Of a DNA stretch of 64,000 nucleotides, positions 10,206 through 64,000 are shown piece after piece (positions within the stretch are counted from its first letter, which is position 1; each line of letters opens with the position of its first letter). The notes under the pieces were generated by a model that worked only from the letters and a program-made list of their open reading frames with translations, searched no databases and was not told where the DNA came from. The position numbers and the translations under genes were made by a program. The stretch comes from Convolutriloba macropyga (taxonomy: Eukaryota), in NCBI RefSeq assembly GCF_964194025.1, contig NC_134480.1:9362001-9426000 (forward strand), read 5' to 3'.

Positions 10206-10394
10206 TCCAATTTTCAACAATGTAATTTTCATTAAATGTTGTTTTGTTTTGTTTCATAATGTGTCCGATATTTGAAATTTGAATGGATTGTTTCATTTTC
10301 TGTTCCTTTGAATCTATTTGAGAACTTCGTCATCGAGATAATTTGCAAAAACTGGAATGTTGACCATTTTCAGTAAATCAGTCCAGAAAAATTA

Positions 10395-10805: not shown

Positions 10806-11214
10806 TATGCTTTGAATTTATATTTGATAATGTTTTAATGTAAGTGTCTCTTCGGGATTGTAATTTATTGTTTCCATTTTCTATTTTTTTTGTCTGAAAA
10901 AAGAGTTGTATTAGAGAAGGAGTCGGTTAAAAATTATCTACAACTACTGTGTACTGATAGTTTGCAATTTGCTGCTCATTCTTACTCAAGCCCCTGATTT
11001 AGGTAATTTTTCTATTTCCATGCACTTTTTCACTGATTCCAGTGTTGGAAAAAATTTCTTTTGATTTCACTTTTAATTTTTTTAGTCTTTGGCACTTTTT
11101 GTTGATTGCGTTGCAATTCAGTTGCATAATTTCTTTATAATTTCTTTATCCATCGAGAAGACTATAAACTATAAATGAACGATCAGACTGATAACTGACT
11201 TAATTTCCGTAATT

Positions 11215-11423
11215 TTGTTTCTGATGACATTAATCATGGAAAAGTATTGGACAGACGAGCAAGCGATCTTTAGAAGTTTTTTATCCCAGTTTTGTGTCAT
11301 TCTGTGGATTATAGTATGTTATTTTGTAAAAATGACATCAGCTGGTACTTCTGAAGAGAAAACAGTTTGGATTGCATTTTTGTTGAGTGCAGCTGGACAT
11401 TTTTTGCCTTCACCAAAAAATGA
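11215..11423 (+). pseudogene. Small two-TM Polinton protein upstream of the ATPase, copy B
   Basis: SQFCVILWIIVCYFVKMTSAGTSEEKTVWIAFLLSAAGHFLPSPK; homologous to ORFs 19434 and 62133. Confidence 0.65.
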
Positions 11424-11870
11424 ACAAATAATTTCCAAAAAAAGAGTTCTTTCTCAGGCTTGGACCAAGGGGGTCTTGGAAATCTCATCTCATCCATGAT
11501 TTGGTAGTTTTTCGGATTTTTCCAACCAAATTTGACCAATTTTACTGTTTATATCATACAATATCAATTTGTTTACGGATTGATGTCTCGAATTATATAG
11601 AACCTTGAGCTCGTTCAGGGTAATTTTGAGTTCATACGGAAACTACCTAACAATGGAACAAAGTGTTTATTCACATTTGACAACTCTTTCGAAGCAAGAT
11701 CCTGTAAAAACAGATATTGTCGAAAGATATAGATAAAGTACAGTATCTTTCATCAAAGACTATTAGAAAGAGATATTGACATCTTTTTATTCAAATCACC
11801 TCAATAAACACACTCAGTCGAAAGAATGAACTGGGACCTCACCTCGAAGACTGGTTCATGACAGCAAGTT
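11420..11870 (+). pseudogene. A32/FtsK-like packaging ATPase remnant, copy B
   Basis: ATG 11420; degenerate Walker A (GPRGSWKS); FQPNLT/PKFD; Walker B-like LFTFDNS. Confidence 0.75.
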
Positions 11871-16790: not shown

Positions 16791-16974
16791 AGTGTCGGTT
16801 TTGATGGAAATTGCAGCTACACAGTTATCGTTATAATCATCGTAATCGGAGTCGTAATTGGCATCGTAGATGCTCTTCTGCTGTAGAAGCCTGCTGATAT
16901 TGTTAACTTGTTCCGCCGCCGTTGCTGAAGTACCTACTGTAGCCGCTTCAGAAACCGAGTCATCAACATAATCT

Positions 16975-19433: not shown

Positions 19434-19637
19434 TTGATGACATTAATCATGGAAATGTATTGCAAAGACGTGCAAGCGGTCTTTAGTAGTTTTTTATCTC
19501 AGGATAGTGTTATTCTGTTGATTATAGTATGCTGTTTTGTAAAAAATACATCATCTGAGACTTCTGAGGAGACAACATTTTGGATTGCATTTTTGTTGAG
19601 TGGAATTGAAAGTTTTTTATCTTCACCAAAACAATGA
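19434..19637 (+). pseudogene. Small two-TM Polinton protein, copy C
   Basis: ORF track: FLSQDSVILLIIVCCFVKNTSSETSEETTFWIAFLLSGIESFLSSPKQ; its stop overlaps the ATPase ATG (ATGA 19634-19637). Confidence 0.65.
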
Positions 19638-20382
19638 ACAAAAAGTTTCCACAAAGAATGAATTTTTATTTACTGGGTCGGACTAAGTGGATCTGGGAAA
19701 TCTCATCTCATCGATAATTTGGTAGTAGTTGGAATCTTTCCACCCAAATTTGGCCAAATTTACTATTTTTTTAACGTTTTCAATTTCATTACCAATTGAT
19801 GTGTAAAAAAACAAAACTTTGAGTCTGTTCAGGGTGATTTTGAGTTCAAACGGAAAATACTTGGGAAGCAGGATCTTGTGAAGCTAGATACTGCCGGAAG
19901 ACGTAAAGATTTAAGTACACTATACATAAAACACAATTTCGTTCTTCAATGTCTTCTAGAAAGAGATATTGAGCTACAGAACACTCATATCGTTTTATTC
20001 AAATCACTTAGAAACGTTTTACAAGTAAACACTCTCAGGCAAAAAAGACCTCAACTCAACAACTTCATTTCCCTATAGTCTTTTACTTGGTGACTTGATT
20101 CCAAAAAAAAATCGACTTTCCTTGATATTGTAGAAACAATTGTTCAACGCCATCAGTATTTCTTCCACCTCAAAACGAGCAACAAATTACATATGTGATG
20201 AGCACACAGCATTGCTCTACTCTGATCACGCTGTTAAATATCCCCAGATCATCAAATTGACATTCCTCAAATATTGTCCCAAAAATTTTTTTCATTTTCT
20301 AAGCAAATGTTTATTAAATTTTCTATTAGTTGAGCAAACAATAATTCAAAAACAGGAGGTAAAAAATGAGAGAAGAAATTGA
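19634..20382 (+). pseudogene. A32/FtsK-like packaging ATPase remnant, copy C (most complete)
   Basis: Walker A VGLSGSGKS (~19677); TAGRRKDLSTLYIKHN..RDIELQNTHIVLFKSLRNVLQV (ORF 19878); C-terminal DEHTALLYS (ORF 20140). Confidence 0.85.
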
Positions 20383-20411: not shown

Positions 20412-22150
20412 AGATTTGTTCTGGTGATATAAATTGTACAAAAGTTTGTGCATTCTAAACGAAATACCAAAGCACCAGAAAGGGAATTCCTCTGAGCAAT
20501 AGTCCCACAGAAGCTGGAGGCCCCAAAATAATTGCTGATAAGGTAGAATAAAAGAAATAAAAAAACTTTTACTAGAAAAAAGTATCGAAAGAATTATTTT
20601 TTATTACCATAACCTTGAGATGATCTTTGGAACGTTTTAATGATAGTTCGTCCCGGCAAAGAGGATCATCAAAAAAGCCGTTACTAATCAAGTAATTGAA
20701 CAGAACGCATCCTCTTCAGGCCAATGAATTCTTATTTGAGGCTTTATTCAGGCGTGGTTTCTGGCAAACGCCAGATTAGACGCTCCTCGTAGTGAGGCAA
20801 TCTTTCACGTCACGCTGATAAAGGCTGTTCAGATACCGAGTAGGCAATTTAGCGTCGACCGATTTCAAAACAAATTTCAATAATGCCAGAATGTGTAAAA
20901 TTTATTCACTTAGGATAGTAGATTCTGAGAAAAGGCAGGATACATTTCGCTCTATTTTCTGAAAAATACCATTTTAAGCAGTTTTTCTGCACAATATAGA
21001 TATGCCGTAACTTAGAAGATGTTGTACATCCATAGATTAAAAGATCCTATCGAATTATTGGTTCGATTAACAAACGGTAATAAAGAATGAGAACGTTTCT
21101 ATTCACGAACTCCCTAATTCATGCGACCGCAAACACATGCTTTGACAAGCGTTTTACAACCTCATAAACATGAACGTCAAAAGAAAGATTTTTGTCCTAA
21201 TGAAAGCCCAGGTACTTCACAGAATCTGAATTCTTCAACCTTTGATTTTGAAGCCTAATATCTGAAGTGGTTGACAAGACCACATGAGTTCAGATTTCTT
21301 AACATTCAAATCTAAATAATTACAAGTGATCCCATTTTGCAGGCAAACAAGATCAAAACAAATGCATCTGTCATTCAAAGTTTCTGTAGAGTTCATAAGT
21401 GTTGTATCTTCTGCAAACATATATATGATAAAAAATTTGCAACTAAAAAAAAAGTCGTTCATATTCATAGTGAAAAGGAGAGGACCGAGTTTTGTCACTT
21501 GTGGCACACCGCTACTGATTACTTTCAAATCTGAAATGCCCCATTGATGAGCGCAGTCTGTTGCCGGTTCAAGCAACCAACTCAAAATGACTCTTCTTAC
21601 ACCATAATGTTCCAGTTTCTCAATCATCAAATCATAATTAACGGTATCGAATGTTTTACTAAATTCAAGAAAAACACAAAACCTTTTGGTTGACATGTTG
21701 ATTAGTAGTTTCTCAACTATCTCTGCGATTGCCAATACTGTACTACATCTATTTCGAAAACCTCTAGTTTTCGCTAACAACAGGCAAGATTGATGCTGGT
21801 CGATAGTTGATCACCTCAAACAAGGAGCTTTATTTGAAAAGCGGAGGTACGCGTTCGTTTTGAGACAATTTGAAAAAATTCTTTGGGAATTTGGAAAATT
21901 TAAAAATCCAGTTAAGTGTGGCAAAGTAACCGGAAGCATAGATTTCAGTATTTTCACAAAAATACCATCGAGTTCATTTGATTTATTAGGATTAAGTGCC
22001 GTAACTATTTTCTCTACCTCTTCATTACCCACTGGAATAAAAATCATTGACTGTACGGCTGTTGAAAAACTAAATTTTTTTCAAGTCTGATTGGATTGTT
22101 CTAGTTTATTGCCAGCGATGGTCGTGAAAAACTCATTGAACAATTCAACA
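20412..22150 (-). mobile_element. CR1-group LINE 3' segment, tandem unit 1 (carries the true 3' end)
   Basis: RT motifs LEFSKTFDTVN, GVPQVTKLGPLLF, MFAEDT, KYLG; 3' inverted repeat ttctggtg/caccagaa. Confidence 0.9.
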
Positions 22151-23888
22151 ATATAATTTGTACATAAGTGTGTGCATTCTAAAAGAAATATTAAAGCACC
22201 AGAAAAGGACTTCCTCTGAGCAAAAGTCCCACAGAAGATGGAAGCCCCAAAATAATTGCTGATAAGGTAGAACAAAAGAAAAAAAGAAATGTGAACTTTT
22301 ACTAGAAAAAGGTATCGAAAGAATTATTTTTTAATACCATAACCTTGAGATGATCTTTGGAACGTTTTATTGATAGCTCATCCCGGCAAACAGGATCAGC
22401 AAAAAAGCCGTTACTAATCAAGTAACTCAACAGAACGCATCCTCTCCAGGCCAATGAATTTTTATTTGAGGCTTTAGTCAGGCGTGGTCTCTGGAAGAGG
22501 CCAGATGAGACGCTCCTCGTAGTGAGGCAATCCTTCACGTCACGCTGATAAAGGCTGTTCAGATTCCGAGTGCGTCGGACAATTTAGCGTCGACCAATTT
22601 CAAAACAAATTTCAATAATCCCAGAATGTATAAATTTTATTTACTTAGGATAGTAGATTCTGAGAAAAGGCAGGATACATTTCTCTCTGTTTTCTGAAAA
22701 ATATCATTTTAAGCAGTTTTCTCTGCACAATATAGATACGCCGTAAATTAGAAGATGTTTTGTATCCATAGATTAAAAGACCATATCGAATTATTGGTTC
22801 AATTAACGAACGGTAATTAAGAATGAGAACGTTTCTACTCATGAACTTCCTAATTTATGCGACCGCAAAGACATGCTTTGACAAGCGTGTTACAACCTCA
22901 TAAACATAAGCGTCAGGAGAAAGGTTTTTGTCTAAATGAATGCCCAGGTACTTCACAGAATCTGAATTCTTCAACCTTTGATTTTGAAGCCTAATATCTG
23001 TCAGTGGTTGACAAGACCACATGAGTTCAGATTTCTTAACATTCAAATCTAAATAATTACAAGTGATCCCATTTTGCAGGCAAACAAGATCAAAACAAAT
23101 GCATCTGCCATTCAGAGTCTCTGTAGAGTTCATAAGTGTTGTATCTTCTGCAAACATATATATGATAAAAAATTTGCAACTATTAAAAAAGTCGTTCATA
23201 TTCATAGTGAAAAGGAGAGGACCAAGTTTTGTAACTTGTGGCACACCGCTACTGATTACTTTCAAATCTGAAATGCCCCATTGATGAGCGCAGTCTGTTG
23301 CCGGTTCAAGAAACCAACTCAAAATGACTCTTCTTACACCATAATGTTCCAGTTTCTCAATCATCAAATCATAATTAACGGTATCGAATGTTTTACTAAA
23401 TTCAAGAAAAACACAAAACTGTTTGGTTGACATGTTGATTAGTAGTTTCTCAACTATCTCTGCGATTGCCAATACTGTACTACATCTATTTCGAAAACAT
23501 CTAGTCTTTGCTAACAACAGGCAAGATTGATGCTGGTCGATAGTTGATCACCTCAAACATTGAGCTTTATTTGAAAAGAGGAGGTACGCGTTCGTTTTGA
23601 GACAATTTGGAAAAATTCTTTGGGAATTTGGAAAAATTAAAAATCCAGTTAAGTGTGGCAAAGTAACCGGAAGCATAGATTTCAGTATTTTCACAAAAAT
23701 ACCATCGAGTTCATTTGATTTATTAGGATTAACTGCCGTAACTATTTTCTCTACCTCTTCATTACCCACTGGAATAAAAATCATTGACTGTACGGCTGTT
23801 GAAAAACTAAATTTTTTTCAAGTCTGATTGGATTGTTCTAGTTTATTGCCAGCGATGTTCGCGAAATTCTCATTGAACAATTCAACAA
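22151..23888 (-). mobile_element. CR1-group LINE 3' segment, tandem unit 2
   Basis: Near-identical ~1.74 kb repeat; ORF 22855-23517 encodes RT. Confidence 0.9.
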
Positions 23889-26800
23889 TATAATTTGTAC
23901 ATAAGTGTGTGCATTCTAAAAGAAATATCAAAGCACCAGAAAAGGACTTCCTCTGAGCAGAAGTCCCACAGAAGCTGAAAGCCCCAAAATAATTGCTGAT
24001 AAGGTAGTACAAAAGAAAAAAAAGAAAGGTGAACTTTTACTAGAAAAAGGTATCGAAAGAATTATTTTTTAATACCATAAGCTTGAGATGATCTTTGGAA
24101 CGTTTTATTGATAGCTCGTCCCGGCAAACAGGATCAGCAAAAATGCCGTTACTAATCAAGTAACTCAACAGAACGCATCCTCTCCAGGCCAATGAATTTT
24201 TATTTGAGGCTTTAGTCAGGCGTGGTCTCTGGAAGAGGCCACATGAGACGCTCCTCGTAGTGAGGCAATCCTTCACGTCACACTGATAAAGGCTGTTCAG
24301 ATTCCGAGTGCGTCGGACAATTTAGCGTCGACCAATTTCAAAACAAATTTCAATAATCCCAGAATGTATAAATTTTATTCAATTAGGATAGTAGATTCTG
24401 AGAAAAGGCAGGATACATTTCTCTCTGTTTTCTGAAAAATATCAATTTAAGCAGTTTTCTCTGCACAATATAGATACGCCGTAAATTAGAAGATGTTTTG
24501 TATCCATAGATTAAAAGACCATATCGAATTATTGGTTCAATTAACGAACGGTAATTAAGAATGAGAACGTTTCTATTCACGAACTCCCTAATTCATGCGA
24601 CCGCAAACACATGCTTTGACAAGCGTTTTACAACCTCATAAACATGAACGTCAAAAGAAAGATTTTTGTCCTAATGAAAGCCCAGGTACTTCACAGAATC
24701 TGAATTCTTCAACCTTTGATTTTGAAGCCTAATATCTGTCAGTGGTTGACAAGACCACACGAGTTCAGATTTCTTAACATTCAAATCTAAATTATTACAA
24801 GTGATCACATTTTGCAGGCAAACAAGGCCAAAACTAATTCATCTGCCATTCAGAGTTTCTGTAGAGTTCATAAGTTTTGTATCATTTGCAAACATATATA
24901 TGATAACAAATTTGCGACTATTAAAAAAGTCGTTCGTATTCATAGTGAAAACGAGAGGACCGAGTATTGTCCGTTGTTGCACAACGCTACTGATTACTTT
25001 CAAATCTGAAATGCCACATTGATGAACGCAGTCTGTTTTCGGTTCAAGAAACCAACTCAAACTGACTCCTCTCATACCATAAACTTCCAGTTTCTCAATC
25101 ATTAAATCATGATTAACGGTGTCGAATGTTTTTACTAAAGTCAAGAAAAATACAAAACTGTTTGGTTGATATGTTGAATCGTAGTTTCTCAACTATCTCT
25201 GCGACTGCCAATACTGTACAACATCTAGTTCAAAAACATCTAGTTTTTGCTAGCAGCAGACAAGATTGATGCTGGTCGATAGTTGATCACCTCAAACATT
25301 GAGCTTTATTTGAAAAGCGGAGGTACGCGTTCGTTTTGAGACAATTTGGAAAAATTCTTTGGGAATTTGGAAAAATTAAAAATCCAGTTAAGTGTGGCAA
25401 AGTAACCGGAAGCATAGATTTCAGTATTTTCACAAAAATACCATCGAGTGCATTTGATTTATTAGGATTAAGTGCCGTAATTATTTTCTCTACCTCTTCA
25501 TTACCCACTGGAATAAGAATGATTGACATTACGGCTGTTGAAAAACTAAAATTTCTTCATGTCTGATCGTATTGTTCTAGTTTATTGCCAGCAATGGTCG
25601 TGAAATACTCATTGAACAATCCAGCTACGGTCTCACCATCACCAACAGCAGCGCCACCTTCGATTCGATGTAAGATTTGTTTGACCCGATTACCTGTTAT
25701 TTTGTTTATGTCTCTGAATATATTGCCTTTTGTTAAGATTGTACATAGGACCATATTGTTATAAGGCTGATATTTCTTATTGGCGACTACCCTACTCATT
25801 GCTTTCCTGGCCATTTTGAATTCTGGAAGGAGTTTTGATTGTCTGCTTGACTTTTCGAATTTACTTTTTCTTTTTACTATTACTCGCTGAACTTCCTCAC
25901 CAAACCAAGTTAATTTTTTTTCTGCGAGACACCATTGTCTTTATTGTTGTATAAATATGGATGAAAGACACAAGAACATTTTAAAGAGATTTCTTGTCAA
26001 CATTCGGCGCTTCGTAATACTCTATGCCAGAGAGCTGTCTTTCGAGATCAAGCAAAATTCTGCTTTGACGATATTCATTGTGGAGGAAGCCAATGCGTCG
26101 CTTTCGCAAAATCCGACAATTGATGCACACTTCATATGGAGTTATGACGGATGTAGCGTAGTGATCAGTTATAGTAAGGGAATAACTTCTTTACTCAGAA
26201 ACATATATATGTTACATATTATATGAGCAATGAGAGTAGATGCTTTCTCGCCGATCAGGGTTGCTTCAGGAATGGTTTGTTCCACACCATGATATATGAG
26301 AACATTCGTTTACTTTTCAATTGGGCTGTCTTTCTTGAGTAGATCGATGTTCCTATCACCTACTAGGTATAAGCAATCAATATTTTCAGAGAATTATTCT
26401 AGAAACTTACCAAGGTCCACTATGAACTTCGCTTTAGAGGTGGATGGCGAATTTTAAATACAGCCCACAAAAAACATTTTTTTCAAATGAGTCTTACATT
26501 TCAGCAGTAAAATATTTTCAAACTCTGTGAAAAATGCTCCAGCCTTAATACAGTCATGCAGATATAAACAAGGGCTCTGATTCTCGGTTGAAAAATGTGT
26601 ATTTATCAATTTTGAAATGAGTTTCATTCGATTCGCCACCCAACCAGGTCTCTGGTTAGTATGATGATATTATATTTGAAGTGTTTGGTAACATGATTTT
26701 GAAGTTCGTCAAAACGTTTATTTAAGGACCGAATTTTGGCATGGAAAAAAGTGTAATTTGTCAAATTTGAATTACTATAGCTTTCAATGCGATGAGTATT

Positions 26801-27480: not shown

Positions 27481-28844
27481 CAGTGCACTTCACCATATGA
27501 TAACTCCCATTCTTGTCAGCAACTAAGGTTGACTTTTTCGTGTCCCAAACCATCGTTCTGTCTTCTTTGAAACTTTTTATTAAGTTTATCATAAGAATTA
27601 GGTAAACCTTTACTGGTGTTGTAAATCTATGCAAAAGAAGACATTCTGAGCTCCAAAAAGTCGATTAGTCTTGTATCAATTTTAACGCCGTCAATCATTG
27701 ATTGCCTCTCTTGGAATGGATTAGTTTGTTTGATTCCTCGGCAACTATATTAGCCAATATTCAAATTATTACCCATAAAATTGAACAAAAGTGACGAGAA
27801 ACAGGCTTTGGTTCCAAAAAATTTCCAACGTTCATAGACAAGTTACTAAAACAAAGTCCTCCGGCAACGAATTACTTATCAATCAAGTTTTGGACTCGCC
27901 TCGCACTAGGCTCTCTCTATCAGGGACTCCATTTTGTTAATTGAAAAAGATACAAACGTCGCCTTTGTTGATTTTGTTCTCGCTCTGAGGAGGGAAAGTT
28001 TGAATGTCCTGATATTTTCACAATTGATGAGGCAACTGGATTAAATCCACATTAAAATATATATATTGATGTAATGATCAAAGACCAAGGAAACTTGATC
28101 CCTCCCCGAATTTGCAAAAAGTAAGCTGCAGAGGTTGTGCAGGAAAGCAAAAGCTGCATATTGTTCAATCCAAAAACTTCAGAAAGATAGTGGGTTGACA
28201 CAGAAGGATACTGATTTTCATATAGATAAAATCTTACACTAAATTTCGCAACCATCGGGACATTTAAAAGGTTACTAGCTTTTGGAAAACGTATTAATGG
28301 GATCTTTTGTCTCTATTTGGCTTTGATGTATAAATTGTCCGAATATAATAACGGCGTGAAATATTTACTGGTGTATGTATATCCTTATCCCACTGGAGTC
28401 GACTGCGGAACCAGAATGATTTAAAGATTTTTATAAGGCAACTTAAATGAGTAAGTTTGATATAAAACCAAATTGCAAAGGTTTGCGAATGCCAAACTTG
28501 GGCAAAATTTTTTTAACACAATTATCAAAGATATAGGCCTAAATTTTGTGTGATTTCATGGATCGCTTCGGTTCAACATCAGACAATTTAGTTGGTAAAT
28601 GAAAGACGCTGTTTTTATTCAGAGGGAAAATGAGATGAGGGACAAAATTGCTGCACCCTCAGTGACTTTGTGCTAACCTCGCATGTCCACGCGACAGGAC
28701 TCAATGTCATAGTCCAGGTGGCAAATTAGACCACGAATCCTTTTTTGAGAAATAACAAACAGGTGACAAGATATTAGGAAAGGCAAACCAAAGCTCAAAA
28801 TCAATCAAGAGAAATTGAAACAATTTAACAAAAACAGTTTGGGA

Positions 28845-37400: not shown

Positions 37401-40400
37401 GTTTCTAAGATTATTATCTGCCGTTTGCTTTCGCGATCTTTTTCAGATTAGAATCATGAATTATTTGAGGGCAATTGATAAACTTGTCAGCTTTTTCAGA
37501 CTATCATTTTTTTGACCACCTCAATTATTTCGTTTTTTTAACGTTACCAAACGTTTTCAATCATATAAACCTTTGCTGCATTTTGTTTCTCTTGGTGACA
37601 GTGGTTTAAGTTTCACAAATTTTTAGCAGACCTGGAGAGGTAGCGAATTAATGGTTTAATACAAAAGGTAGTGGCTTCTTTGCGATTACAGTGTTGTCAG
37701 TGAAGTTTTGACGCTTCGAGTCTCTTCCGTAATTCTTCTGGCTATGTTTTTTTGTTTCGTCGTCTGACGCTCTTTTTTCGTTTTACATTTGTTCACTCTG
37801 CAAAGCTGAAAAAGTTAAATTTTCTGAATGACTTCTTCCTCTCACTAACGTCATTTGCGCGCGTGACGTCATTTCTCACTCGCTTTAGCAAAAGTTTTTA
37901 GGTTATTTGCGTGATTAGATTTTGATCATAAGTGACTTACCTCACTCAATAAAATGACTTTTGCACTTTAAAACTTAAGTTCAGTTTGAATTTGTTTAAG
38001 GTCAAAGGAACGCATTTGTGCAGTAAAGGTCCCTAATAAGAGGCTTCTGCGGAATGAATTTTAACAAGCTTTACTAATTTATCGCTGAATGTGTTTTACC
38101 TAGTTTTTTGAGCGGCGTCGATTTTTTTTTCAATTTAGATCTGTTTCGATCTCTATTGTATGTCACGCAGGTCTATTCTTTCGCAGCTATTCCGGCAATC
38201 TGCCGGCTATGTTTTTAGTCGTTCGTTTGTCTTTCAAATGCAAAATATTTGATTGACCGTTGTTTTGCGAAAATATCTGCTCACTTGAGCGATTTGACTT
38301 CTCGGGTGACTTTTTTTACGCTTCACTGCTTGATTTTTGCGTGACCGATTTTACTCCTATTCGCGTCACTCGAAAGCAATCGTCCGACTTCCTTGATTTG
38401 GTGTTTTGGGAATCGAAATTTTACGAAAGCTATGAACAATGCAGCAAGGGAGTTTATGTATAAGTTATGGACAATTTTTTTTCTCAATTTTGGAAAACAG
38501 CACATTTTTAAAAAACGATTTCAACCAAAGTTACTCTCAAGCATTGTAATTCTCTTGGGAAAACCCGAAGTGTATAACATTTGTTTCCTTCGCTTATAAT
38601 TGCTCTCAAGCAACGTTTGTAGCATTGATATGAGTGTTGCGGTCTTTTTATGCGATTTTTTACTTGACCGATTTTTTGTCTGACCTTTTTGACTTGTCGT
38701 CCTCGAAAGCGGGATATACTGGTAAATCCCGGAGAGGAGGGCATTACGTGCTCTTAGAGCCTTATGGCTCTTGACTCACTAATCTCTAAGTATGCGATTC
38801 ACTGAAGCAGCTTAGGAGACACAAATAGATGATATGAAGGGTGGTTCTTAGAGTTTGCCCCCCTTGAACCCTCCACCACTCTTCCTCATTCCAACGGTAA
38901 CACCGAACACTCGGCGCCTCCGCGTCGGACCATTACCCTCTCATGCTCATCCCTTTCCCTTCAATTAAGCTAAAGCTAGCCTTCCTCAACCGCGCAGCTG
39001 GCTATCGACGAAGCAAACCGCTCGACAGTAGTTTGAGAGCAATTCGCTCGATGTTAGTTGGTAATGTTTTGTCATGTTGAGCTTCGAATTAAAATTAGTT
39101 CTTAGGGTCGTTCGAGATGGCTTTCTGGCATCGAACAAACTGCCCCTGATCTCGTTATCTGCCCTCGGTTTTCTTTGTATGTCAGAATTACAAATTTAAT
39201 TATTTGCTACCGGGGTTTTGTTCAGAGTAGGGGAGAAATTCTGCTTAATTTTTATAGGTTACAACTGACCATACTTCGAGGGTGAGATTGACTCAGTACA
39301 CGCGGTCTGCCTCAATCTGTGGTCTGTTTGCAGTCCCACTAGTAGAGTTCTGCTACGAGACATACGGAGATACAGGTGAGAAACCATTTAGAAATTTATA
39401 AAGTTACGAGCTGCTCAATGTTAAGTAACTGCATCAACATTTTCAATGATGGTAAAGGACACTTTTAAAATTTTAACCAATGTTATGCAGTTGTGAAAGA
39501 TCATACTGTTTAGTAGGACACGATTTTTTTAAAGACAAATGTATGATTTGGCCTAGCATTCCTGACGGTTTCAGTTTGCTAAATATTTTGTAATTTTATT
39601 GTAGTTTATTACAAACATTGGTTTTAAGTTTCATGTGTACTACATTAGTTGTGTTTCAATCTGCTGAATCACATCGCTATACTGGGCTTTTAAAGCTGAT
39701 CGATCACTTTTTAGACTCGAGTAACTCAAAATTTTTATCAAACTTTGTGAATGAATGTTTGGTTCTATTTTAACTTGTCTTTGTTTTATGATACAATTCA
39801 AATGGGGTAAATTATCACAAATAGCGACAATTTAATTACTAATAACTAATAGACTAATTTTTGTACTGCTTTTAGGGTTCTATGTGTGTCTAATATTCAT
39901 CGCAATTGTTGCTACAATCTTCATGTGTATGACGGGCTTGTACACAAAATCAGTGATCAATAGAATAGACGAATTGCCTTCAGCCGATGAGCCTTCATTT
40001 TTTTCAAGACAGTACTTGAAACTCAACTTAGAAATTCTCCTCAACAGAAACTTTCTCTGCTTCGTCACCATGAATTTCCTAACAGTCGGTTTGGGACATT
40101 TCGCAGCGAACTTCACCAAAATTTTCAGCGAAGATCTGCAGCTGTTTTCAGAGTCGAAAAGCAACAAAATCTTGTTCTTTTTCTTCAATTCGATTGGTGG
40201 AAATTCTTATATATTACTACTTTCACCCTTGATCATGATTTACGGATCGCACATGATTGCATGTGCATCTTTTTTCCTAGTACTTTTATCAAGCGTAGTC
40301 TTGTACTTTTACAGAACATTCGCGATGATAGTTACTCAAATTATCGTTCTAAATGTGGTCGCGCATGGAATCGGAGGTCTGACCGACGTTTTCGTGTCAA

Positions 40401-41450
40401 GTTTGATCGATGAAGACATGGTGAGATATAAACGAAGGCTTCCGATTTCGTCAATGTTTTTTGGTCTGAATGCCCTGGTGACGAAGCCAGCTCAATCGCT
40501 ATTTCCGATGCTGGCTGTTTTCTTTCTGGACATGACGAAAATTGAAAACAAAGATGGTGCGTTTTCATTGACCTTCCATTCAGTCCCCATATCTTTGCGC
40601 ATTTTGCGTTTTCGCCCCCACGTGTTATTATTGAAGCTTTTCAGGGGGGAGGGGAGAGGAAGGGAACGGAGGGAGGGGGTGCATAGTAAATGGTGTACTG
40701 TGAGGGACAGGCGAGAGGGGGTTGTTAAAAAGCGCTTCTAGTAGTAAAAAATGATGTGAAGTTTACGCTAGCAGGGGGAAGTATGAACTCTGAAACTTTA
40801 GATTCTGCTTCAAAAAATCAGTAAAGAAAATAATTTCTTCCCTTGCCCCACAAAATTATTGACACTCACTCATTTAGCTTGTTTTCGGTAATTGGGAAGC
40901 TTTGTATTCGAGACCCACTACCCTTCTTCTGGAGGCCGCTAAAACGGATGAACAAAACCAAAAATAAGTGATGTTTTTCCACTAGGGCGTTTATACCAAC
41001 TTTGACAAATGGTACTGATACAAGTGGGCGTGATACGTGATATTAATCCATTTTGCTCAAACTCCAGCCCCCCCCCCCCCACTATTAGTAGGTGCGAATT
41101 ACTTCTACCCCGCAAGTTTATCGCATAATGATTTACTATTTAATGGTACATACTCCATAACTCGTGAACGTACTGGAGTTGGAGGAGGAGGGGGGGGGGG
41201 GGGGTGGCGGGTGGCGGGGGGATATAACAGAAAAGATCCAGTGCCCAGCTAATTTAATGATTTCCACCAATTTTCAGGTAAAACTGTGAGGTCACAAGAG
41301 GCAATAGTGACTTTAATGTGTGTCTTACCAATGATCACAGCTCTTCTCCAGCTCATCATATTCACACCTTTCCGCATGAACATTGTGACCGCTTCAAGAG
41401 GTGGAAACTCCACCAAGATGCAGGTGGATTTGAGCAAAGATTGGGAGTAG
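31222..41450 (+). CDS. MFSD13A: MFS transporter MFSD13A/TMEM180-like, paralogue A (~472 aa, 5 coding exons)
   Basis: Exons 31222-31449, 35608-35826, 39258-39375, 39876-40556, 41278-41450. All GT-AG and phase-consistent (0,0,1,1) with an open frame. Motifs WNAINDPIFGW, YGAPLF, IDEDMVRYKRRLPISSMFFGLNALVTKPAQS. An alternative in-frame ATG lies at 31204, upstream of a tttcag acceptor. Confidence 0.92.
31932..33220 (+). mobile_element. 5'-truncated LINE with uninterrupted RT/C-terminal ORF (31942-33171) in intron 1 of gene A
   Basis: Begins GFRMKRS; FDFSKAFD, GVPQGSVFGPLLF, FADD, KDVGL; ends CTWTFICICENCR; (AAT)n tail; AATA on both sides. Confidence 0.95.
33300..34390 (+). mobile_element. Heavily decayed LINE (CR1/L2-like) remnant
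   Basis: CRYLGVQIDSKLT (~33660), FKSIVLSHLSFSG; 3' inverted repeat ccacaattt/aaattgtgg. Confidence 0.65.
35608..35826 (+). CDS. MFSD13A: MFSD13A-A exon 2
   Basis: ttag|DHSSAKWIRSRQLNILYGAPLF..HCSLFAE|gtaagg. Confidence 0.92.
35890..39070 (+). mobile_element. Cluster of Helentron-type non-autonomous (HINE-like) elements in intron 2 of gene A
   Basis: 3' ends cttccgtaattcttctggctatgtttt (~37725) and gcagctattccggcaatctgccggctatgttttt (~38185). 37850-38220 is homologous to 53640-53997, and 38700-39070 is homologous to 55180-55400 and 58330-58510. Confidence 0.6.
39258..39375 (+). CDS. MFSD13A: MFSD13A-A exon 3
   Basis: atag|VTTDHTSRVRLTQYTRSASICGLFAVPLVEFCYETYGDT g|gtgaga. Confidence 0.92.
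39876..40556 (+). CDS. MFSD13A: MFSD13A-A exon 4
   Basis: ttag|..FYVCLIFIAIV..LDMTKIENKD g|gtgcgt. Confidence 0.92.
41278..41450 (+). CDS. MFSD13A: MFSD13A-A terminal exon
   Basis: ttcag|..KTVRSQEAIVTLMCVLPMITALLQLIIFTPFRM..DWE*. Confidence 0.9.
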
Positions 41451-53452: not shown

Positions 53453-56400
53453 GTTAATTCTTTCGAGTTAATTGTTTAATAAGGAATCTATTTTTATTAA
53501 TAGCCGCACAGCGATAGCTGGGGCTATTATTGGCCTTCTCTTGGTTTTTTTTATTTCGTCGTCATGATTTTTGTTACGACCATGTGACGTCACAGCCACT
53601 TTTTGTTCATTCGTTCATGCAATTTCAACTGAATTGCATGTGTGACGTCATTTTTCGCTCTTAGTGGAGCGAGTTTTTTTGTTCATGCGCGTGATTAAAT
53701 TTCTGGTCACACTTGACTTACCTCACTCTCAAAAATGACTTCCTCACTTTTGGAAATTGACTTTTATTTATTTTAATTCAAAGAGATAAGGTCAAATGGG
53801 CGTGTGTCACTCTAAATGAAGGTTATTTGAGATCAGCTAATAGAGGCAGCAATAACTTATACAGATTTTAAATCAAAATATAACAGATCAGCCTTCAATG
53901 AAAAGACGAGTTTTTTGGTCTGTCTTTTTGTTTTTTTAGACTGCCGATCTACGAATCTATTGCGGCTATTTTCTGGCAATCTGCCAGCTATGTTTTTGAA
54001 CAGGAAAAAAGTTTTTAATAGTTTATAGCCGCGTAGCGTTAAGGAGGGCTATTATTAAGACATTCTTTGGCTTTTTTAAAAATCAATTCAAACTAAGAAA
54101 AAATTATTGTCATAAGGACGTCAAATGTGTCAATTATTGATTTTCAGATGTCAAGGGGGGACAAAATCCGGAACGTAACTGTTTGAGAAGCTTCGTAGAT
54201 TTCCCAAGAACTTGAGTACCACATTTTCAACAATTTTTAACTGTTGTCAGGATATTAGGGGTAGTTGACTATATCAATTACAATTTTTTTGAACTTTCTT
54301 TTAATTAGGCCACTATAAATGCTCTTATGGTCGTTTGTAACCCCACTTAGTGGTAAATTACAGTAGGCAAGAGGAAAATACTGATTGTTCCTATTCTTAA
54401 TTGGAAAATTCTATTTAAATAGCATTTCAGCAATTTTTTGGAGGATGTTTTGAATTCTCATGCAAATTTTAGTCGCCTTTTTCAAACAATCGTTTTGATT
54501 TTTTTTTTCAAACAATTTAACGCCAAAAAGTCTTTCACCTTGTTTCCTTCGGCGAACGAACAATGCTGACCCGGCCTTTTATATTAAACCTCCAACTATG
54601 CGTTGTCGAAATATACGAATAGTATCATTTAAAAGACACATGAAAAGAATTTATCATTGCAAAACGTTTTTCAGTTTCTTTATATTTAGTTAAGTGCTTT
54701 ATAATTGATAGTCAATTTAGCCTATTTCTTGACAACTACATCCTCGAAGTGGCAACGTTTCGAGCGCAAACTAAACAGACTTTTTTAAAAAAACAGACTT
54801 AACTACTTTAATCGGTTGCTTTTCATAAAATGTTTCAATTTTCTCAACAATGATCAACACTTCATGTAAGTACAACTTACCTGGAGTTAAAGTTTAATCC
54901 TGTGTGATTACGCTGGTTGATCTTAATGAACACATTGATGGATGTTTACTAATTTCCTGTGAGAATTCGCTTCTGTAGTAAAAAGTTGTTCATATATTTA
55001 GGTCAAGAAATTTTTAATGTGAGGGCAATTAGCACTTCCGCAATTTAACTGCGAGTTAATTGCCGTCAAAAAAGTTTAGTAATTATATTAGTTCGGTTGG
55101 CCATGTTGCCATTGGTCTTTTTGGCCTGTTTGTATCTAACTGTATTTTGTCTGATATTTTTTGTCTGGCTATTTAACTTTTCGTCCACAAAAGCGGGATA
55201 AAGAGGTAAAGCTCCCCACCTCATTCCAAACCCAATCCACTACATTGGAAGTCCCCGCGCCAAACTCACCTCTCTTTTGAGCCCCCTTCGGTACCCCTTT
55301 CCCACTCTCTCAGTTAAGTTTAAGTAAAGTTTCCCTGAACCCCAGCTATTGACGAAGCCAACCGTATGCTAGCATTTAGCCCGAAGTTAGTCGGTTTTGT
55401 TCAAAATTTGTGGTTCGATAATAAATGTGTTCAATTAATTCTTTTGTTTTCCTCCAGAATGCATACAGGAAAGCTATTAATCTGTTCGTGTTGTAAAAAG
55501 CAGGAAAAGTAGTTTCATAGATATTTATAGATGTTTGCTGGTGTTCAAACTACACTGGAGAACCGATTTTGAAACAAAAGACTTTTTGTCTAAATTTTCA
55601 TTACTCAATTACTGCGCCAATCACTTGTCCGAGGTTGGGCTCTATGAGCAGTAGCAATTATTTTCTGATTTTTTTTCCAATTTCCGGATATACTACCAGA
55701 TCCAACTAGATTTGAGAAATAGAAAAATTAAAAACAAATATTGGTAAAGCGAGGAGTTTGACACTGGTTTTGTTCTGTTTTTTTTTTAAAAAAACAAACA
55801 TTCTATTGTGCAAGCTTGTTACTATTAATCCAAGGATTTTTATCCGAATAGCTGTTAAGCTTCCTTGAAACCTGGTCTCTTGTTGAACAGACTGACGCTT
55901 TTTTACAGGACCATTCTTCTTCGAAGTGGATTCTATCCAGACAACTCAACATTCTGTACGGCGCACCAGTTTTTGCTGTTTCATTTCTGTTCGGTTGGTT
56001 CCCATTCTACGATGTGCTCCACTTAGACAGCGAATATTGGAAGTGTATACACCTTGTGTTAACACTCTGTTTCTGGGATACGATGTTTTCATTCGTGTTG
56101 CTGGCTTATTGTGCTTTATTCACGGAAGTAACAACTGATCACACATCAAGGGTAAGATTGACCCAGTACACGAGAGTGGCCGCCATTTGTGGATTCTGGG
56201 CGGTGCCTATGGTAGAGTATGGATACGAGACGTATGGGAATGAAGGTATGTTTTTATTGTTTAAATAGAGAAAGTATTCCATCCCCCGTGAACCCTTTCC
56301 TGCACATTGTTTCCCTTAACATGTGTGAACAAACGCTTATTATCGCACTGGTAATTTCTCGGTTTGCCTAATAATAGGTGGAACTAGCCATTACAATTAT

Positions 56401-59400
56401 TGTATACTGTTATAAAGGCCTAGAAACGTCGATTGTTCTGGGTCATAATCCACGGGGGGAAAAATATTAAGAATAAGTTTACGGGAGCTTTTTTTTCAAA
56501 TACTTTTCGGATGCGACTTTTTGCATTCAAATCCTTCTTAATACTAAATGAAACGGTCGCCTCTTAACTGAGCCCCTGGAATTTATTAGCATGTAACAAG
56601 TTTGTTGATTAACCGGATTGATCAATAATTCATTCACTTTATCGGTCAATATTGATATCTCCAATTAAGCAACAGTAGAATTAATTGCAATGATTACACA
56701 AATGTGATTACGCAATTAGATAGTTCTAATTTAGGAGTTTGGTTGCAATGAAAAATTTGAACTGCGATCATTCAACTAGAAAATCCGATGTTCAACTGGA
56801 AAAGAGAGTCCGGCTTAATATCGCCAATTTGGTTTTTTTCATAACTCGTGTGATGAGTTTTACATGTCAAATTAGGTATAAATTTAAGAATAGCTTTTTT
56901 TAAAAAAAAATTTACTGATGGATTATTCTTTTTCAGGTTTCTATCTCTGTCTCTTCTTCATAGCAATTGTTGCGACAATATTCATGTGCCTTACGGGACT
57001 TTTCACTCGCTCAAATGTGAACAGATTAGACGATGCTCAAATTGCAGAAGATCCTCCGTTCTTTTCTTACGAATTCCTTCGAATGAACTTACAAATTGTC
57101 TTCAACAAAAACTTCATATCTTTTGTTACAATGAACTTTTTGTCAGCCGGAATGTGTCATTTCGCGGCCAGCTTCACAAAAATTTTCACAGAAGATCTAT
57201 CCCTGTTTTCAGACTCAAAAAGCAACAAGTTGACCTTTTTCTTTATAAATTCGGTTGGAGGTAACTTGCTGATTGTTTTGATATCGCCGTTTATCGAGAG
57301 TTACGGCTCCGTTGTCATCGTTTGTTTGTCCTTCGTTTCTGTGTTTTTATCGAGTGTGTTACTGTATTTCTGGAGGACGTTTAATACAATTATAGTTCAG
57401 ATCCTAATTCTCAATATTGTACCGTCGGGTATGTTCGGACTGTATAATATATTCGTGTCAAGTGTTATTGATGAAGATCAGGTTCGGTACAAGAGGAAAC
57501 TCCCTCTGTCTTCCATGATTTTTGGGATCAACGCTTTGATTACGAAACCAGCGCAGTCCATTTTCCCGATGATCGCAGCTTACTTTCTGGACATGACCAA
57601 AGTTGACGTAGTTGATGCAGCAGGTGAGATCTGCCATTCCTCTAAATGCCTACAGCTTTGTGTGTGAATTTCGGAGCGCTTGTTATTTGCATCCTCCGGT
57701 AAAATTTGCCACATTACAATCGTAATTATTTTCAATTTTGTTTATTAGTAGCCGCGAAGCGATAGCGGCTGTTATTGGGGACATCGTGGTTTTTACAATC
57801 CAAAGGATTTGGATTGTATTGGTGTGCTGTCTTTTTTAAAGTTCGGTTCACGCTTTTTTCGGCTTTTTCACGTCAGTGAGAAGTCAAATTAGAGTGGTGA
57901 TTTTAGTCACACTAGTACTAAAGAGAACCAAAATAAGAGTAGGTTTAAGGCGTGACTTTTTGTCAAACTACCTTTAAATTGGAGTCAGAAATGGTGTTTG
58001 AACAAATTTTTGGTTTTTGAGACGGAGTTTTTTTACAATTCAAGAATTGGATTGCCTCGAGGCTCGTCGTTTCCATTGATGATTCTTTCGACCATTGACT
58101 TTTTCAATTTCAGTGACTTCTACTGCTTTGCAGTTATCTGCACGTTGTCCAGCTTACAAGCTTAAGTTTTTAATTGCTTTCGAACGAAGTTTTAAGGAAT
58201 TATTGCAGTGTTGTGTCTTGTACAAGTTATGCTTGACCATTTTAACGTTTCGAGTGACTTTCCTCGCTTGACTTTTTCATTGTAAAATTAGATTTTGCAG
58301 CCCCATGATGTTGAGCAGTTCTCTTAATGCTTTATTAGTCTCTAAGCGAACAAATCACCGAAGCTGCTGATAAGATAAAATCATGATGCGACCTTCCATT
58401 ATAAAATCTATAAAAGCTAAACTGCCCCTCACTCCTTTGTCCTCATCCGTGCTCCACCCGCTCGCCAATGGTTTGAGAACAATTCGCTCGACATTATTCG
58501 GTTATGTTTGAATTTTTTAAGAGAAGTAGTTGACGTAAGGTATTCTTGTTTTCTTTGTTTGGTAATTAGTATCTAGTTGTCACCAGTTATTGTATTCTAA
58601 GTTAAGAACTGAAATAATTAGCTGCATATTGAATTGATGAATCATTTATTAATATGATATCTTGAAATGAAGTTTTAAGCAATTTTTGTAGTCATTTTGT
58701 TCTTGTGTCAAGATTTTGTTTGATCGATTTGAACAGTTCCTCAGACCTACAATTGCCAGAAAAAATTGAATTGCATAGTTAAATAATAAGCGGTTTTCTC
58801 ATTACAGGGAAAGGTTTTTGTCATTCCTACCTACTTGGTTTTCCAAACCTTAAGTCTTTTTGAGGAGTCCACAATTCATGCAACTGCTCGAAATGTGATT
58901 CATCGCCTCTTCTTTTGTTTTTTTCTTTTCAACGGAGTGAGATCATCTAGATTGATACGTCAGAGACTTTACAGCAGAATTTTGGGAATGCGTTACCGTG
59001 GGCTAGTTTTTAAAACCAATTGTGTTAATATTTTTTGCTTCTGCTACTTGTCGCTTTCTTAGTTTCTTTTTTTATTGACAAATTCAACATCATATCCACA
59101 GTTTTAGTGAGGTTTAAAACTATTTTTTAGAGACATAATTGAGCTTTGATTATAGACATCAGGAAGTTGATAAAATTTTAAAATCTTTTTTATTACTCGG
59201 CTTCTGCCAATAGCTTCTGTGCGGAGCAATCATATGTTTTTCTTTTTGTTTTATTTTAATGTTGTCAAAAATGTTTTATAAAACTTTTGCTGTATGACTT
59301 CTGGTCACTTTTTCTCCAAAGCAGTTTTTTTGCATTTTTATTGCCTTACTCAAATTAATACCTGCTTTTGCGTTAGAGCGGTTTTTTTCCGTTCTTTACA

Positions 59401-61298: not shown

Positions 61299-62132
61299 AA
61301 CTTTCCTGAAAAGCTCAGCTTCAGATGTGCACGTGTGAAAATTGTGTTATGATAGAGGTATGTGGGACTCTGGCATCCCACGCTGTGACCATTGACATAC
61401 ATTGAAAATAAGAAACTTTAAATATTAACTATGGCTAGATACGGCAATCAGGAGCCTCCGTATTGAAGAGGTGAGTAGGATCTCATATGTGGGATGTCTG
61501 TGAAGAACTTTATTAAATCTGCGTGGTCTACATTAATAAATAATCTTGGTTTATCTTGATCTAAAATTCAAATGTTTTCTGATTATTTATTATTGCCAAT
61601 CTTAATCCTTTCTCCGATCTTTGATGTTTCTTCCTCTCTCCCTCAGCCTTGTAACTCCCTCAGCACAAGGCCCCTCCTGTTGGATGACATTGCTTAGAAA
61701 AGGCTCCCTTCTCATTGGGTGAGTTCAATAGTGATAGTAGTATACGTAAATGGTGTGTATCAGTATACATGGGGTCCACGGTGTGTAAAAAACCGACCCC
61801 TTCATTTTTGGCAGAAAAATAAAAATTTTGAAAATTGTTAGAAATGATCTCAAATCGAAGGAGGTGTTTTAATTTTCACATTAAGACGTTTTTTATTTTT
61901 TTTTCGATTTTTTAACCTTCGGTTTTCTGGGGCACACAGTTGAAATTCTATGTCCCCACTAAATATTTACATGTCCCCACAATTTTTTTTTCAGAAAAGC
62001 GCTTGGGCGCGATGGGACAATATATGAAGACAAAATCAAAACATGAGTTTGGAAAAAATACCCCTAGCAAGTTCATTTTTCAAATAGTAGTTCCAGTAAA
62101 CAGACGTCAAGTAAAATCGATAAACTGTTCAA

Positions 62133-62411
62133 ATGAGTACCCGAGTTACGAGAGACGAAATTGTTGGGGGTATTACAAACTTGGTTTTTGATGATGGAAA
62201 CCGAGAGAGACCCCCATGGCGTTGCTGTTCCAATACCGTAGTCCCTCGATCAGAGATTATATTTTTTGTTCAAGTGAGTATTATAGTGCTCATGATTAGT
62301 CTCTGTTTTGCCATGCTCTTCCTGATATCGGAAAGTTGCGAAGAGAAATCAATTTGGATTGCACTGCCTTCGAGTCTAGTTGGTTATATTTAGCCAAATC
62401 CTAAATTATGA
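62133..62411 (+). pseudogene. Small two-TM Polinton protein (premature TAG at 62391)
   Basis: PRSEIIFFVQVSIIVLMISLCFAML..CEEKSIWIALPSSLVGYI*PNPKL*; homologous to ORFs 11215 and 19434. Confidence 0.75.
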
Positions 62412-63095
62412 ATCAGGTCATTCTCACATACGATTATCTTCATGGCGGTTGTAGGCCCAAGTGGTTCTGGGAAAACCGACCTAATATTCAACATTTTGCA
62501 AGGTTCGTCGGTCTATCCAGCATTTCACAAAATTTATTACCTCTACAGAGCGTTCCAGGACACATTTACAGCTATGCAACGTAAAATACCGCACATCGAG
62601 TTCATCAAGTATTTCGAATTGGATATTACAAAGAAGCTTTCGTATTGTTTGCTCATTTACGACGACTCATGCGAGGAAATTTTTAACGACAAAGAATTTG
62701 TGAAAATAGCTACGTCAGGAAGACACAGAAAACTTCATGTGATCTACGTCAAACATAACTTATTCCAACAGAGTAAATAGTCGCGGACAATTGACCTAAA
62801 TACCACTCATATAGTTTTATTCAAATCATTGCGTGACATTCAACAAATAGAAAACCTCGGAAAACAGTTAAACTGTCTCCACTTACTCAAGGATGCATAC
62901 AAACTAGCAACAGCGCAGCCCTGTGGACATTTAATCTTTGACCTGGATCCTTAAACAAGTCAAGTTTTACGATTTTGGTCTCAACTGATTGGTCCCGAAC
63001 CATCACTTTTCTATATTCCCTGCGAGGAAGCTCTTATTTCAACAATTACGAATGAAAAAGAGACATTTGCTTTTGCTGAGGCGCTGGTGCGTTAA
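62408..63095 (+). pseudogene. A32/FtsK-like DNA packaging ATPase
   Basis: Walker A VGPSGSGKT, Walker B LLIYDDSCEE, A32 motif TSGRHRKLHVIYVKHN. The frame continues past TAG 62778 (SRTIDLNTTHIVLFKS..GHLIFDLDP) to TAA 63095. Frameshift near the start. Confidence 0.92.
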
Positions 63096-63369
63096 CAGCA
63101 ACTCCAAATCGAAAAGCAAGAGAACTTTCCTAGCCCAAGATATTGAATTCATTTGGTTTCTAAGTGATTGTATAATGAACGTGCTCTCTGGTGTTGTCCC
63201 AATCAACAAGAAAAAACTACAACAATTCGAACCTCAACTGCGACAACTTTCTGGAAATTATTTCAGTGCGCTGGAAAGTAATAAATTTTCCCAGACAACG
63301 AGAGGGCATTCTCTGATTAAACTAATCGCCAGACTTTGTCTAGAGTATCTACAGAAAAATGCCAACTGA
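63052..63369 (+). CDS. Small basic Polinton protein (PW/core-protein-like)
   Basis: FIWFLSDCIMNVLSGVVPI..KL..F..QLRQL pattern, typical of the small ORF that follows the ATPase in Polintons (from memory). Confidence 0.55.
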   Translation: MKKRHLLLLRRWCVNSNSKSKSKRTFLAQDIEFIWFLSDCIMNVLSGVVPINKKKLQQFEPQLRQLSGNYFSALESNKFSQTTRGHSLIKLIARLCLEYLQKNAN

Positions 63370-64000
63370 GGAATTTGTACTCATTCCTCGCAACTTGTTT
63401 ACAACTGAACAACCCCAAGTTTCGCAAATATTAAACAATCCGTTCACAAAAAACAAGTCAAAACAACTATCGCTTCTAAAGAGAACTTCAAAACAAGAGC
63501 CACCAGAAGCAGTCATACAGCAGAACACAGAGCAACAGACAGATGACGTCATGGTTTCCGATGAAAAAGAAAAGCAACAAAGTATCCCAGTTGACACTAA
63601 ACAGAAAGAGTTTGATAAAATCAGTCAGAGTGTGATCGATGATAGATTTTCTCGATAAGGACAAATTCGGAAAAGTAGAAATAATTTAAAGAAAATCAAC
63701 CGATCACGCTACATTTCACTGGACGTTGAAGGTAAAATCCTGATTAATGGAAGGAACACCGACATTCTAGCATCAACTTTCCTCTACGCATTACAACAAA
63801 CATCATCAACACTTTTGCCTGACGATTATCAAGTATTGAATTGTTTGAACCTTGCACCACATCTCAGTTCTCATACTTACGCAAAGAAGTTCATAAAAAA
63901 TCCGAAAGAGCCAAAACTACATCAGTTTTCAGATGGAGCAGCCAGTGAACAGAAACCTGCTATCGAGAGAGCCGAAAAAACAGAGACTGCTAGCTTTGAT
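63359..64000 (+). pseudogene. Conserved Polinton hypothetical protein (frameshifted at ~63655)
   Basis: MPTEEFVLIPRNLF..ILNNP..QLSLL, then KINRSRYISLDVEGKILINGRNTDILASTFLYALQQ in a shifted frame. Confidence 0.55.

What the first reader, a model, noticed from the sequence alone, without database searches (positions are those of the whole stretch)
62133..63095. Conserved 2-TM protein translationally coupled to the genome-packaging ATPase: a possible membrane-anchored packaging vertex
Seen: in two divergent families a small two-helix membrane protein (..EEKxxWIA..GxxLPxPK) ends in ATGA overlapping the A32/FtsK ATPase start (62408-62411; 19634-19637). Established: tectivirus PRD1, a relative of Polintons, anchors its ATPase P9 at the special vertex through small membrane proteins P20/P22, and AUGA overlaps support termination-reinitiation. 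Inference: these animal Polintons may encode a stoichiometrically coupled membrane anchor, implying virions with an internal membrane. To my knowledge this is not characterised.
Basis: partly seen in the sequence, partly recalled or inferred. Interest (0 to 1): 0.7.

Follow-up and report, generated by a model that had tools for sequence, protein, structure and literature searches.

The report
Polinton membrane protein beside packaging ATPase
Decayed copies of a virus-like transposon (Polinton) carry a small hydrophobic gene that overlaps the DNA-packaging ATPase gene; in the related elements sampled it mostly sits beside the capsid-vertex gene instead, and its product likely ties the capsid to a membrane rather than anchoring the ATPase specifically.

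Summary
The overlap is real, but the window holds only broken copies. At 62133 the small ORF stops early (62391-62393), and the ATG of the ATGA (62408-62411) is out of frame with the Walker A. Better-preserved copies in this genome show ATGA in 70 of 70 parsed loci from five families, 40-64% identical; the overlapping ATG reads into a Walker A in most. The element is a Polinton/adintovirus. The protein is already listed, uncharacterised, as 'Macc' between Integrase and Penton in Buck et al. 2024 (supplement). Outside this clade the ATPase link is not the rule: of 72 informative clusters the downstream neighbour is the penton in 47 and the ATPase in 3. In one virophage it lies before the minor capsid gene, 3.9 kb from the ATPase. 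Only helix 1 is a clear transmembrane helix, and no TURBS-type reinitiation motif was found. Best reading: a membrane hairpin of the virion module that likely links capsid vertices to a membrane (like PRD1 P16, about 0.4). Rivals are a viroporin (0.3) and a dedicated ATPase anchor (0.12).

The parts
61736..61741 (+). AGTAGT, probable left terminus of the Polinton copy
   Evidence: The same hexamer opens five other family-A copies with unrelated flanks. The right end and inverted repeats were not examined.
62133..62411 (+). Small hydrophobic helical-hairpin gene (Macc-type, 92 codons in natural open copies); premature stop at 62391-62393 in this copy
   Evidence: model with helices 39-64 and 69-86, mean pLDDT 77.8
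62408..62411 (+). ATGA stop/start overlap
   Evidence: conserved in 70 of 70 parsed loci of this genome
62408..63095 (+). A32/FtsK-type packaging ATPase gene, broken here (frameshift near the start, stops at 62778 and 62952)
   Evidence: Pfam Pox_A32; 87% identical to a natural open copy
63052..63369 (+). 105-aa ORF overlapping the ATPase end; weakly similar to the ~107-aa ORF of other Polintons
   Evidence: local profile E 0.003 for family A, 2.6e-6 for family B
63359..64000 (+). Next ORF of the block, broken, leading into the integrase; integrase, penton and further genes lie beyond the window
19447..19637 (+). Decayed second copy of the small hydrophobic gene, with ATGA at 19634-19637
19634..20045 (+). 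Decayed ATPase remnant, second copy
   Evidence: tblastn E 1e-32 with a family-B ATPase
11175..11869 (+).
   Evidence: (D16)

Best explanation
The window holds broken Polinton copies in which a small hydrophobic hairpin gene overlaps the packaging-ATPase gene by ATGA, and the hairpin protein likely works as a membrane-embedded member of the virion-building module that ties capsid vertices to a lipid membrane, as PRD1 P16 does, rather than as a dedicated ATPase anchor. Shown: element type, gene order, overlap, family breadth, neighbour counts, one strongly hydrophobic helix. Inferred: insertion into a host membrane with the basic N-flank cytosolic and the short second helix folding back; self-association through the conserved Gln in helix 1; contact of the conserved C-terminal G-Y-x-L-P-x-P motif with a capsid protein, most plausibly the penton. 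The gene has moved within the module several times. One clade placed it before the ATPase and kept the four-base overlap, likely through tight packing plus co-expression; whether ribosomes reinitiate there is untested.
For: Polinton markers in the same block: rve integrase, Peptidase_C5, DNA_pol_B_2, Pox_A32; penton by fold (mavirus penton, E 8.2e-10). 341 representatives at E<=0.001. Neighbour census of 123 loci in 74 clusters: downstream penton 47 of 72, upstream integrase 47 of 67; at 60% clustering penton 17 of 32. In a virophage contig group the gene directly precedes the Sputnik-type minor and major capsid genes. Near-invariant W29 68/70, Q47 67/70, G84 65/70, P88 70/70, P90 67/70; mean 2.7 K+R before helix 1. 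Eight of the 150 listed homologues carry two tandem units, as expected for a protein that self-associates. P16 as membrane anchor of the regular PRD1 vertex: PMC4267777, passages.
Against: Adjacency to the penton may only reflect an ancestral gene order: small gene/penton spacing ranges from -200 to +134. In 11 of 72 clusters the downstream gene is none of the markers. A close look-alike (56 aa, local E 1e-14) lies in a 190-kb contig with phage-type DNA polymerase, thymidylate synthase and dNMP kinase genes, where an internal-membrane role is not obvious. A review calls virophages membrane-less, though it also cites a lipid layer in Sputnik (PMC10301787, passages). Helix 2 is marginal as a transmembrane segment.
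Confidence: 0.4

Rival explanations
1. A non-structural viroporin or holin-like protein, made late from a leader position ahead of capsid-module genes (as polyomavirus agnoprotein is; recalled), that oligomerises in host membranes to aid particle release. The virion then has no internal membrane.
For: Small size, one strong TM helix with a conserved polar Gln, tandem-duplicated forms. It tolerates different downstream genes: penton, integrase, small ORF, ATPase. Look-alikes occur in virophage, giant-virus-labelled and phage-like contigs. Buck et al. note holin-like hydrophobic domains in some Macc classes.
Against: No Pfam family is matched by more than 2 of 70 members at E<=0.05, and no holin family stands out; 1 of 70 members has a weak unnamed PHROG hit. 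In Polinton contigs it stays within the virion block.
Confidence: 0.3
2. One reading: a P20/P22-like anchor of the A32 ATPase at a unique packaging vertex, made in fixed ratio by termination-reinitiation.
For: ATGA invariant across six lineages 40-64% identical, while the other junctions of the block differ between families A, B and C. A separate lineage also has the ATPase 2 nt after the stop (L067, L162), and 6 clusters have the ATPase directly upstream. Third-position identity in the last 20 codons is 42/102, against 30/110 in ATPase codons 10-30.
Against: ATPase-adjacent in only 9 of 74 clusters, and about 3 kb away in the common order; 3.9 kb away in the virophage. The ATGA-linked ATPases form one branch (7 rows, 90/84, below the starred threshold). 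No UGGGA in 76 of 76 junctions, no Rfam match in 3 loci, folding z between -1.1 and +0.5 in 6 lineages. The third-position signal lies inside the range of other ATPase windows (17-43%), and the pairs are not independent. P20 and P22 are 4.7 and 5.4 kDa proteins, about half this size.
Confidence: 0.12
3. A membrane-lytic core protein carried inside a membrane-less capsid for entry, like adenovirus protein VI (the sense in which Buck et al. coined Macc).
For: Annotated Macc in four adintovirus records; the element encodes an adenovirus-type protease.
Against: Helix 1 is uniformly hydrophobic (mean 2.63 over 19 residues), which fits an integral membrane protein better than a soluble amphipathic one. 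The authors call Macc a generic, polyphyletic class.
Confidence: 0.1

Closest known systems
Adintovirus 'Macc' small ORF between Integrase and Penton (Buck et al. 2024, PMC11071296, supplementary file 2: AdiAZBV01015367, Adinto15040, Adinto16550, Adinto20002)
   Same: Same size and signature (W...Q in helix 1, then a G-Y-x-L-P-x-P end), read in supplement passages but not aligned by me; same element type.
   Different: There it precedes the penton; in this clade it precedes the ATPase, with a fixed two-residue tail and ATGA. No function was tested there, and I saw no mention of the overlap in the passages read.
PRD1 P16 (membrane anchor of the regular five-fold vertex)
   Same: Small integral membrane protein (12.6 kDa) of a double-jelly-roll virus, associated with the penton vertex.
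   Different: No sequence or structural link found; binding and an internal membrane are unproven here. Analogy only.
PRD1 P20/P22 (transmembrane conduit under ATPase P9)
   Same: Small membrane proteins in a virus that uses an FtsK/A32-type packaging ATPase.
   Different: About half the size, a heterodimer of two genes; no homology found. The gene here is mostly not next to the ATPase.
TURBS-dependent termination-reinitiation (caliciviruses, influenza B)
   Same: Stop and start share bases (AUGA is a listed form).
   Different: The always-present UGGGA is absent in 76 of 76 junctions; no shared transcript is shown.

Membership tests
Polinton/Maverick (adintovirus) | Protein-primed family B DNA polymerase | tested here: met
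   DNA_pol_B_2, E 1.3e-7, in family-A copy L032
Polinton/Maverick (adintovirus) | Retrovirus-like integrase | tested here: met
   rve, E 3.7e-11
Polinton/Maverick (adintovirus) | A32/FtsK packaging ATPase and adenovirus-type protease | tested here: met
   Pox_A32 and Peptidase_C5 above cut-off
Polinton/Maverick (adintovirus) | Single jelly-roll penton | tested here: met
   Model of the 282-aa ORF matches mavirus, Sputnik and adenovirus pentons
Polinton/Maverick (adintovirus) | Double jelly-roll major capsid protein | tested here: inconclusive
   434-aa ORF in the expected place has no Pfam hit; not folded
Polinton/Maverick (adintovirus) | Terminal inverted repeats and target-site duplication | not tested
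   Only the left-end AGTAGT was seen
Macc small hydrophobic ORF (Buck 2024) | Sequence signature of the records so labelled | tested here: met
   Motif searches hit four Macc-labelled records; compared by eye, not aligned
Macc small hydrophobic ORF (Buck 2024) | Present in the capsid core and membrane-active | not testable with these tools
   Hypothetical in the paper as well
PRD1 P20/P22-type packaging anchor | Homology to P20/P22 | tested here: inconclusive
   No relevant PHROG or PDB sequence match; such short proteins are easily missed
   9 of 74 clusters adjacent; penton follows in 47 of 72
PRD1 P20/P22-type packaging anchor | Recruits the ATPase to a unique vertex of a membrane-containing capsid | not testable with these tools
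   Needs particles or binding assays
PRD1 P16-type vertex anchor | Integral membrane helix | tested here: met
   Helix 1 above 1.6 in 60 of 60 parsed members; prediction only
PRD1 P16-type vertex anchor | Binds the penton vertex in a virion with an internal membrane | not testable with these tools
   Only gene adjacency is available
TURBS termination-reinitiation | Stop and start within about 20 nt | tested here: met
   ATGA overlap
TURBS termination-reinitiation | UGGGA upstream of the stop | tested here: not met
   0 of 68 within 100 nt, 0 of 8 within 120 nt
TURBS termination-reinitiation | Conserved RNA structure | tested here: inconclusive
   No Rfam match, no folding excess, weak third-position signal
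TURBS termination-reinitiation | Both ORFs on one mRNA | not testable with these tools
   Needs stranded or long RNA reads

The most novel reading that the evidence does not exclude
Animal Polintons build virions with an internal lipid membrane inherited from tectivirus-like ancestors. This hairpin protein, shared with virophages and giant-virus-like genomes, is their conserved vertex-to-membrane anchor, and one clade expresses the packaging ATPase from it by a TURBS-independent reinitiation at an invariant ATGA.
Probability: 0.2. Interest if true: 0.75.

Novelty: new variant of a known kind. Interest (0 to 1): 0.38.

Why it matters
Whether animal Polintons form virions, and whether those contain a membrane as their tectivirus relatives do, is open. 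A conserved integral membrane protein in the virion block is one of few handles on that question, and it reaches virophage and giant-virus-labelled contigs. The invariant ATGA also offers a simple reporter test of how these tightly packed eukaryotic gene blocks are expressed. The specific claim of an ATPase-coupled packaging anchor is weak, and the ORF family was already annotated, which limits the surprise.

Tried and rejected
Complex prediction of penton + ATPase + small protein: no answer, score 0.00, alignments not used; no evidence either way. Sequencing runs: no RNA holder listed; contigs of two runs of unknown kind were laid on the locus and say nothing on transcripts. The Protein Atlas could not be used. 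Fold searches with the hairpin model: no match at E<=0.001 in BFVD (best M1HDI1, unnamed, E 0.037) or PDB; VIA gave only generic hairpins, top Z 6.3; absence there excludes nothing. PDB sequence search with the family profile: nothing meaningful. First viral-contig scan with the narrow family: no relative. No match for the phage-like look-alike in named phage genomes. Two further homologues were not found in this genome at strict E cut-offs. A fusion or read-through reading was rejected: small gene and ATPase share a frame only in the broken copies, and natural open copies use two frames. A polyadenylation signal at the junction was not pursued: AATAAA in families A, C, E but AACAAA in B, D and the metagenomic lineage. 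Leaky scanning was not resolved: 1-2 internal ATGs in families B, C, E but 4-8 in A, A2, D. Earlier scan findings: none relevant. Literature searches that showed no functional study of this ORF or overlap: (listings only, open-access library). The vaccinia A13 paper was not held.

Full report
Observation. The window is repeat-rich, AT-rich eukaryotic DNA (GC 35%) from a 1.18-Gb assembly. ATGA stands at 62408-62411 and 19634-19637. Both copies are broken. At 62 kb the small ORF ends at a premature stop (62391-62393), the overlapping ATG is out of frame with the Walker A, and the ATPase frame has two more stops. The 19-kb copy is more decayed, and a third copy at 11.2 kb is an 81% duplicate of it. 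The ATPase fragment hits Pfam Pox_A32.

The arrangement in better-preserved copies. A search of this genome returned 150 scored matches, the scoring limit. Of the 30 best loci, 28 were parsed: all have ATGA, in all the ATG reads into a Walker A, and 17 give a 229-aa ATPase. Further families gave 4 of 4 (A2, 84% identical to A), 15 of 15 (B), 15 of 15 (C), 4 of 4 (D) and 4 of 4 (E) with ATGA; in 2 loci each of B and C my script found no Walker-A reading. A metagenomic lineage has it in 4 of 4 loci. Six lineages are 40-64% identical in the small protein. These loci were chosen by similarity and are not a random sample.

Element type. In family A the order is small gene, ATPase, 105-aa ORF, 243-aa ORF, rve integrase, 282-aa ORF, 144-aa ORF, 434-aa ORF, C5 protease, zinc-finger ORF, PolB. 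The 282-aa ORF folds as a penton (mavirus penton E 8.2e-10; Sputnik and adenovirus pentons follow). It is a Polinton/adintovirus. The block is tightly packed throughout. Measured to the longest ATG ORFs, ATPase/next is -44, +3 and -77 in A, B and C; integrase/penton is -4, +2 and -8; penton/next is +3, +17 and 0; next/434-aa ORF is -11, -4 and -11. Overlap is therefore ordinary here, but the small gene/ATPase junction is the only one of these that never changed.

The protein. An alignment profile found 341 representatives at E<=0.001, and no Pfam or PHROG family describes it. The model is a helical hairpin (helices 39-64 and 69-86, pLDDT 77.8). Helix 1 is strongly hydrophobic in 60 of 60 parsed members; helix 2 is short and marginal. 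W29, Q47, G84, P88 and P90 are near-invariant. Eight of 150 listed homologues have two tandem units.

Neighbours elsewhere. Scans of viral and metagenome contigs gave 137 loci, of which 123 had a profile hit and 14 were dropped. They form 74 clusters at 80% core identity. Downstream neighbours in 72 informative clusters: penton 47, integrase 6, small ORF 4, ATPase 3, virophage minor capsid 1, other 11. Upstream in 67: integrase 47, ATPase 6, other 14. At 60% clustering the penton follows in 17 of 32, with several mixed clusters. An earlier count had dropped four ATPase-linked loci through a strict motif; one search includes them. The small gene/penton spacing is -4 in 9 of 45 clusters and otherwise variable. 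An ATPase tree of 25 of 26 attempted loci puts the 7 ATGA-linked ATPases on one branch (90/84, not starred); the L162 lineage, with the ATPase 2 nt after the stop, was not in the tree. Homologues also lie before Sputnik-type capsid genes in virophage contigs, 3.9 kb from the ATPase, next to a MutS gene in a contig labelled as giant virus, and in six more viral contigs (5 of 6 pattern matches plus 1), one of them phage-like.

Coupling. AUGA is a known form in TURBS-dependent reinitiation, which needs an upstream element (PMC10275272, passages) that always contains UGGGA (PMC11921876, passages). UGGGA is absent in 76 of 76 junctions. There is no Rfam match and no folding excess. Third-position identity in the last 20 codons is 41%, against 27% in the first ATPase window, but it lies within the 17-43% range of other windows. 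Coupling is thus neither shown nor excluded; I put reinitiation at about 0.3.

Mechanism. Shown: gene order, overlap, breadth, hydropathy. Inferred: an integral, probably oligomeric membrane hairpin of the virion module. I favour a vertex-to-membrane link like PRD1 P16 (0.4), because the commonest downstream neighbour in Polintons, and in one virophage group, is the vertex protein. A viroporin or holin-like release protein (0.3; agnoprotein analogy recalled, from no call) is nearly as good and explains the phage-like and virophage cases. A dedicated P20/P22-type ATPase anchor gets 0.12 and a protein-VI-like core protein 0.1.

What is known. Starrett et al. 2021 (PMC8502044; passages and a supplement search) list other membrane-active adintovirus genes and unnamed conserved ORFs; I did not find this motif in the stored, cut supplement. 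Buck et al. 2024 (PMC11071296; passages and supplement file 2, cut when stored) label this family Macc in four records; in all four it precedes the Penton, and Macc is defined as hypothetical. PRD1 P16, P20 and P22 are from PMC4267777 (passages). Widen et al. (10.1101/2022.07.12.499685; passages; bioRxiv supplements not seen) propose enveloped Maverick particles from a fusogen, a different gene. PMC10301787 (passages) is contradictory on virophage lipids. PMC11980589 (passages) lists vaccinia A13, A14 and A32 only as table entries. Searches (listings) showed no functional study of this ORF or of the overlap; unseen supplements and subscription papers could hold one.

Verdict. A real, conserved Polinton gene with a clade-specific invariant overlap; already annotated, functionally open. 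The ATPase-anchor reading is weakened by the neighbour census. New variant of a known kind, interest 0.38.

Noticed in passing
window 9247-10803, 18643-19002, 27625-28379: Further scattered remnants similar to family-B Polinton genes (upstream 155-aa ORF, ATPase, small ORF, integrase), found by tblastn.
   Followed up: partly
window 13362-17639 (-): Broken LTR-retrotransposon-like ORFs with gag-, RT- and integrase-like motifs, judged by eye; they lie between the 11-kb and 19-kb duplicates.
   Followed up: no
window 20427-25429: Three tandem copies of a unit of about 1.74 kb, 89-98% alike, containing LINE-like reverse transcriptase fragments.
   Followed up: no
window 39836-40741 and 55852-57667 (+): Two related hydrophobic ORFs resembling exons of a host MFS-type transporter (by eye).
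   Followed up: no
L208 5941-6228; L209 5885-6172; L210 5833-6120: Family B has a second small hydrophobic ORF (95 aa) between the putative major capsid gene and the protease gene.
   Followed up: no
L032 1927-3556; L034 1606-3537; L036 1908-3362; L209 1925-3227; L214 1952-3569: An ORF overlaps the integrase start in families A, B and C and is fused to it in two family-A copies; decay or a programmed frameshift, untested.
   Followed up: no
P0106, P0124, P0125, P0127, P0129, P0138, P0140, P0141: Homologues with two tandem copies of the hairpin unit.
   Followed up: partly
L219 4896-5066: 56-aa look-alike among phage-type replication genes in a 190-kb contig; homology versus convergence and the virus type are unresolved.
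   Followed up: partly
L035 4970-9961: This family-A copy has its polymerase half inverted relative to the other copies.
   Followed up: no
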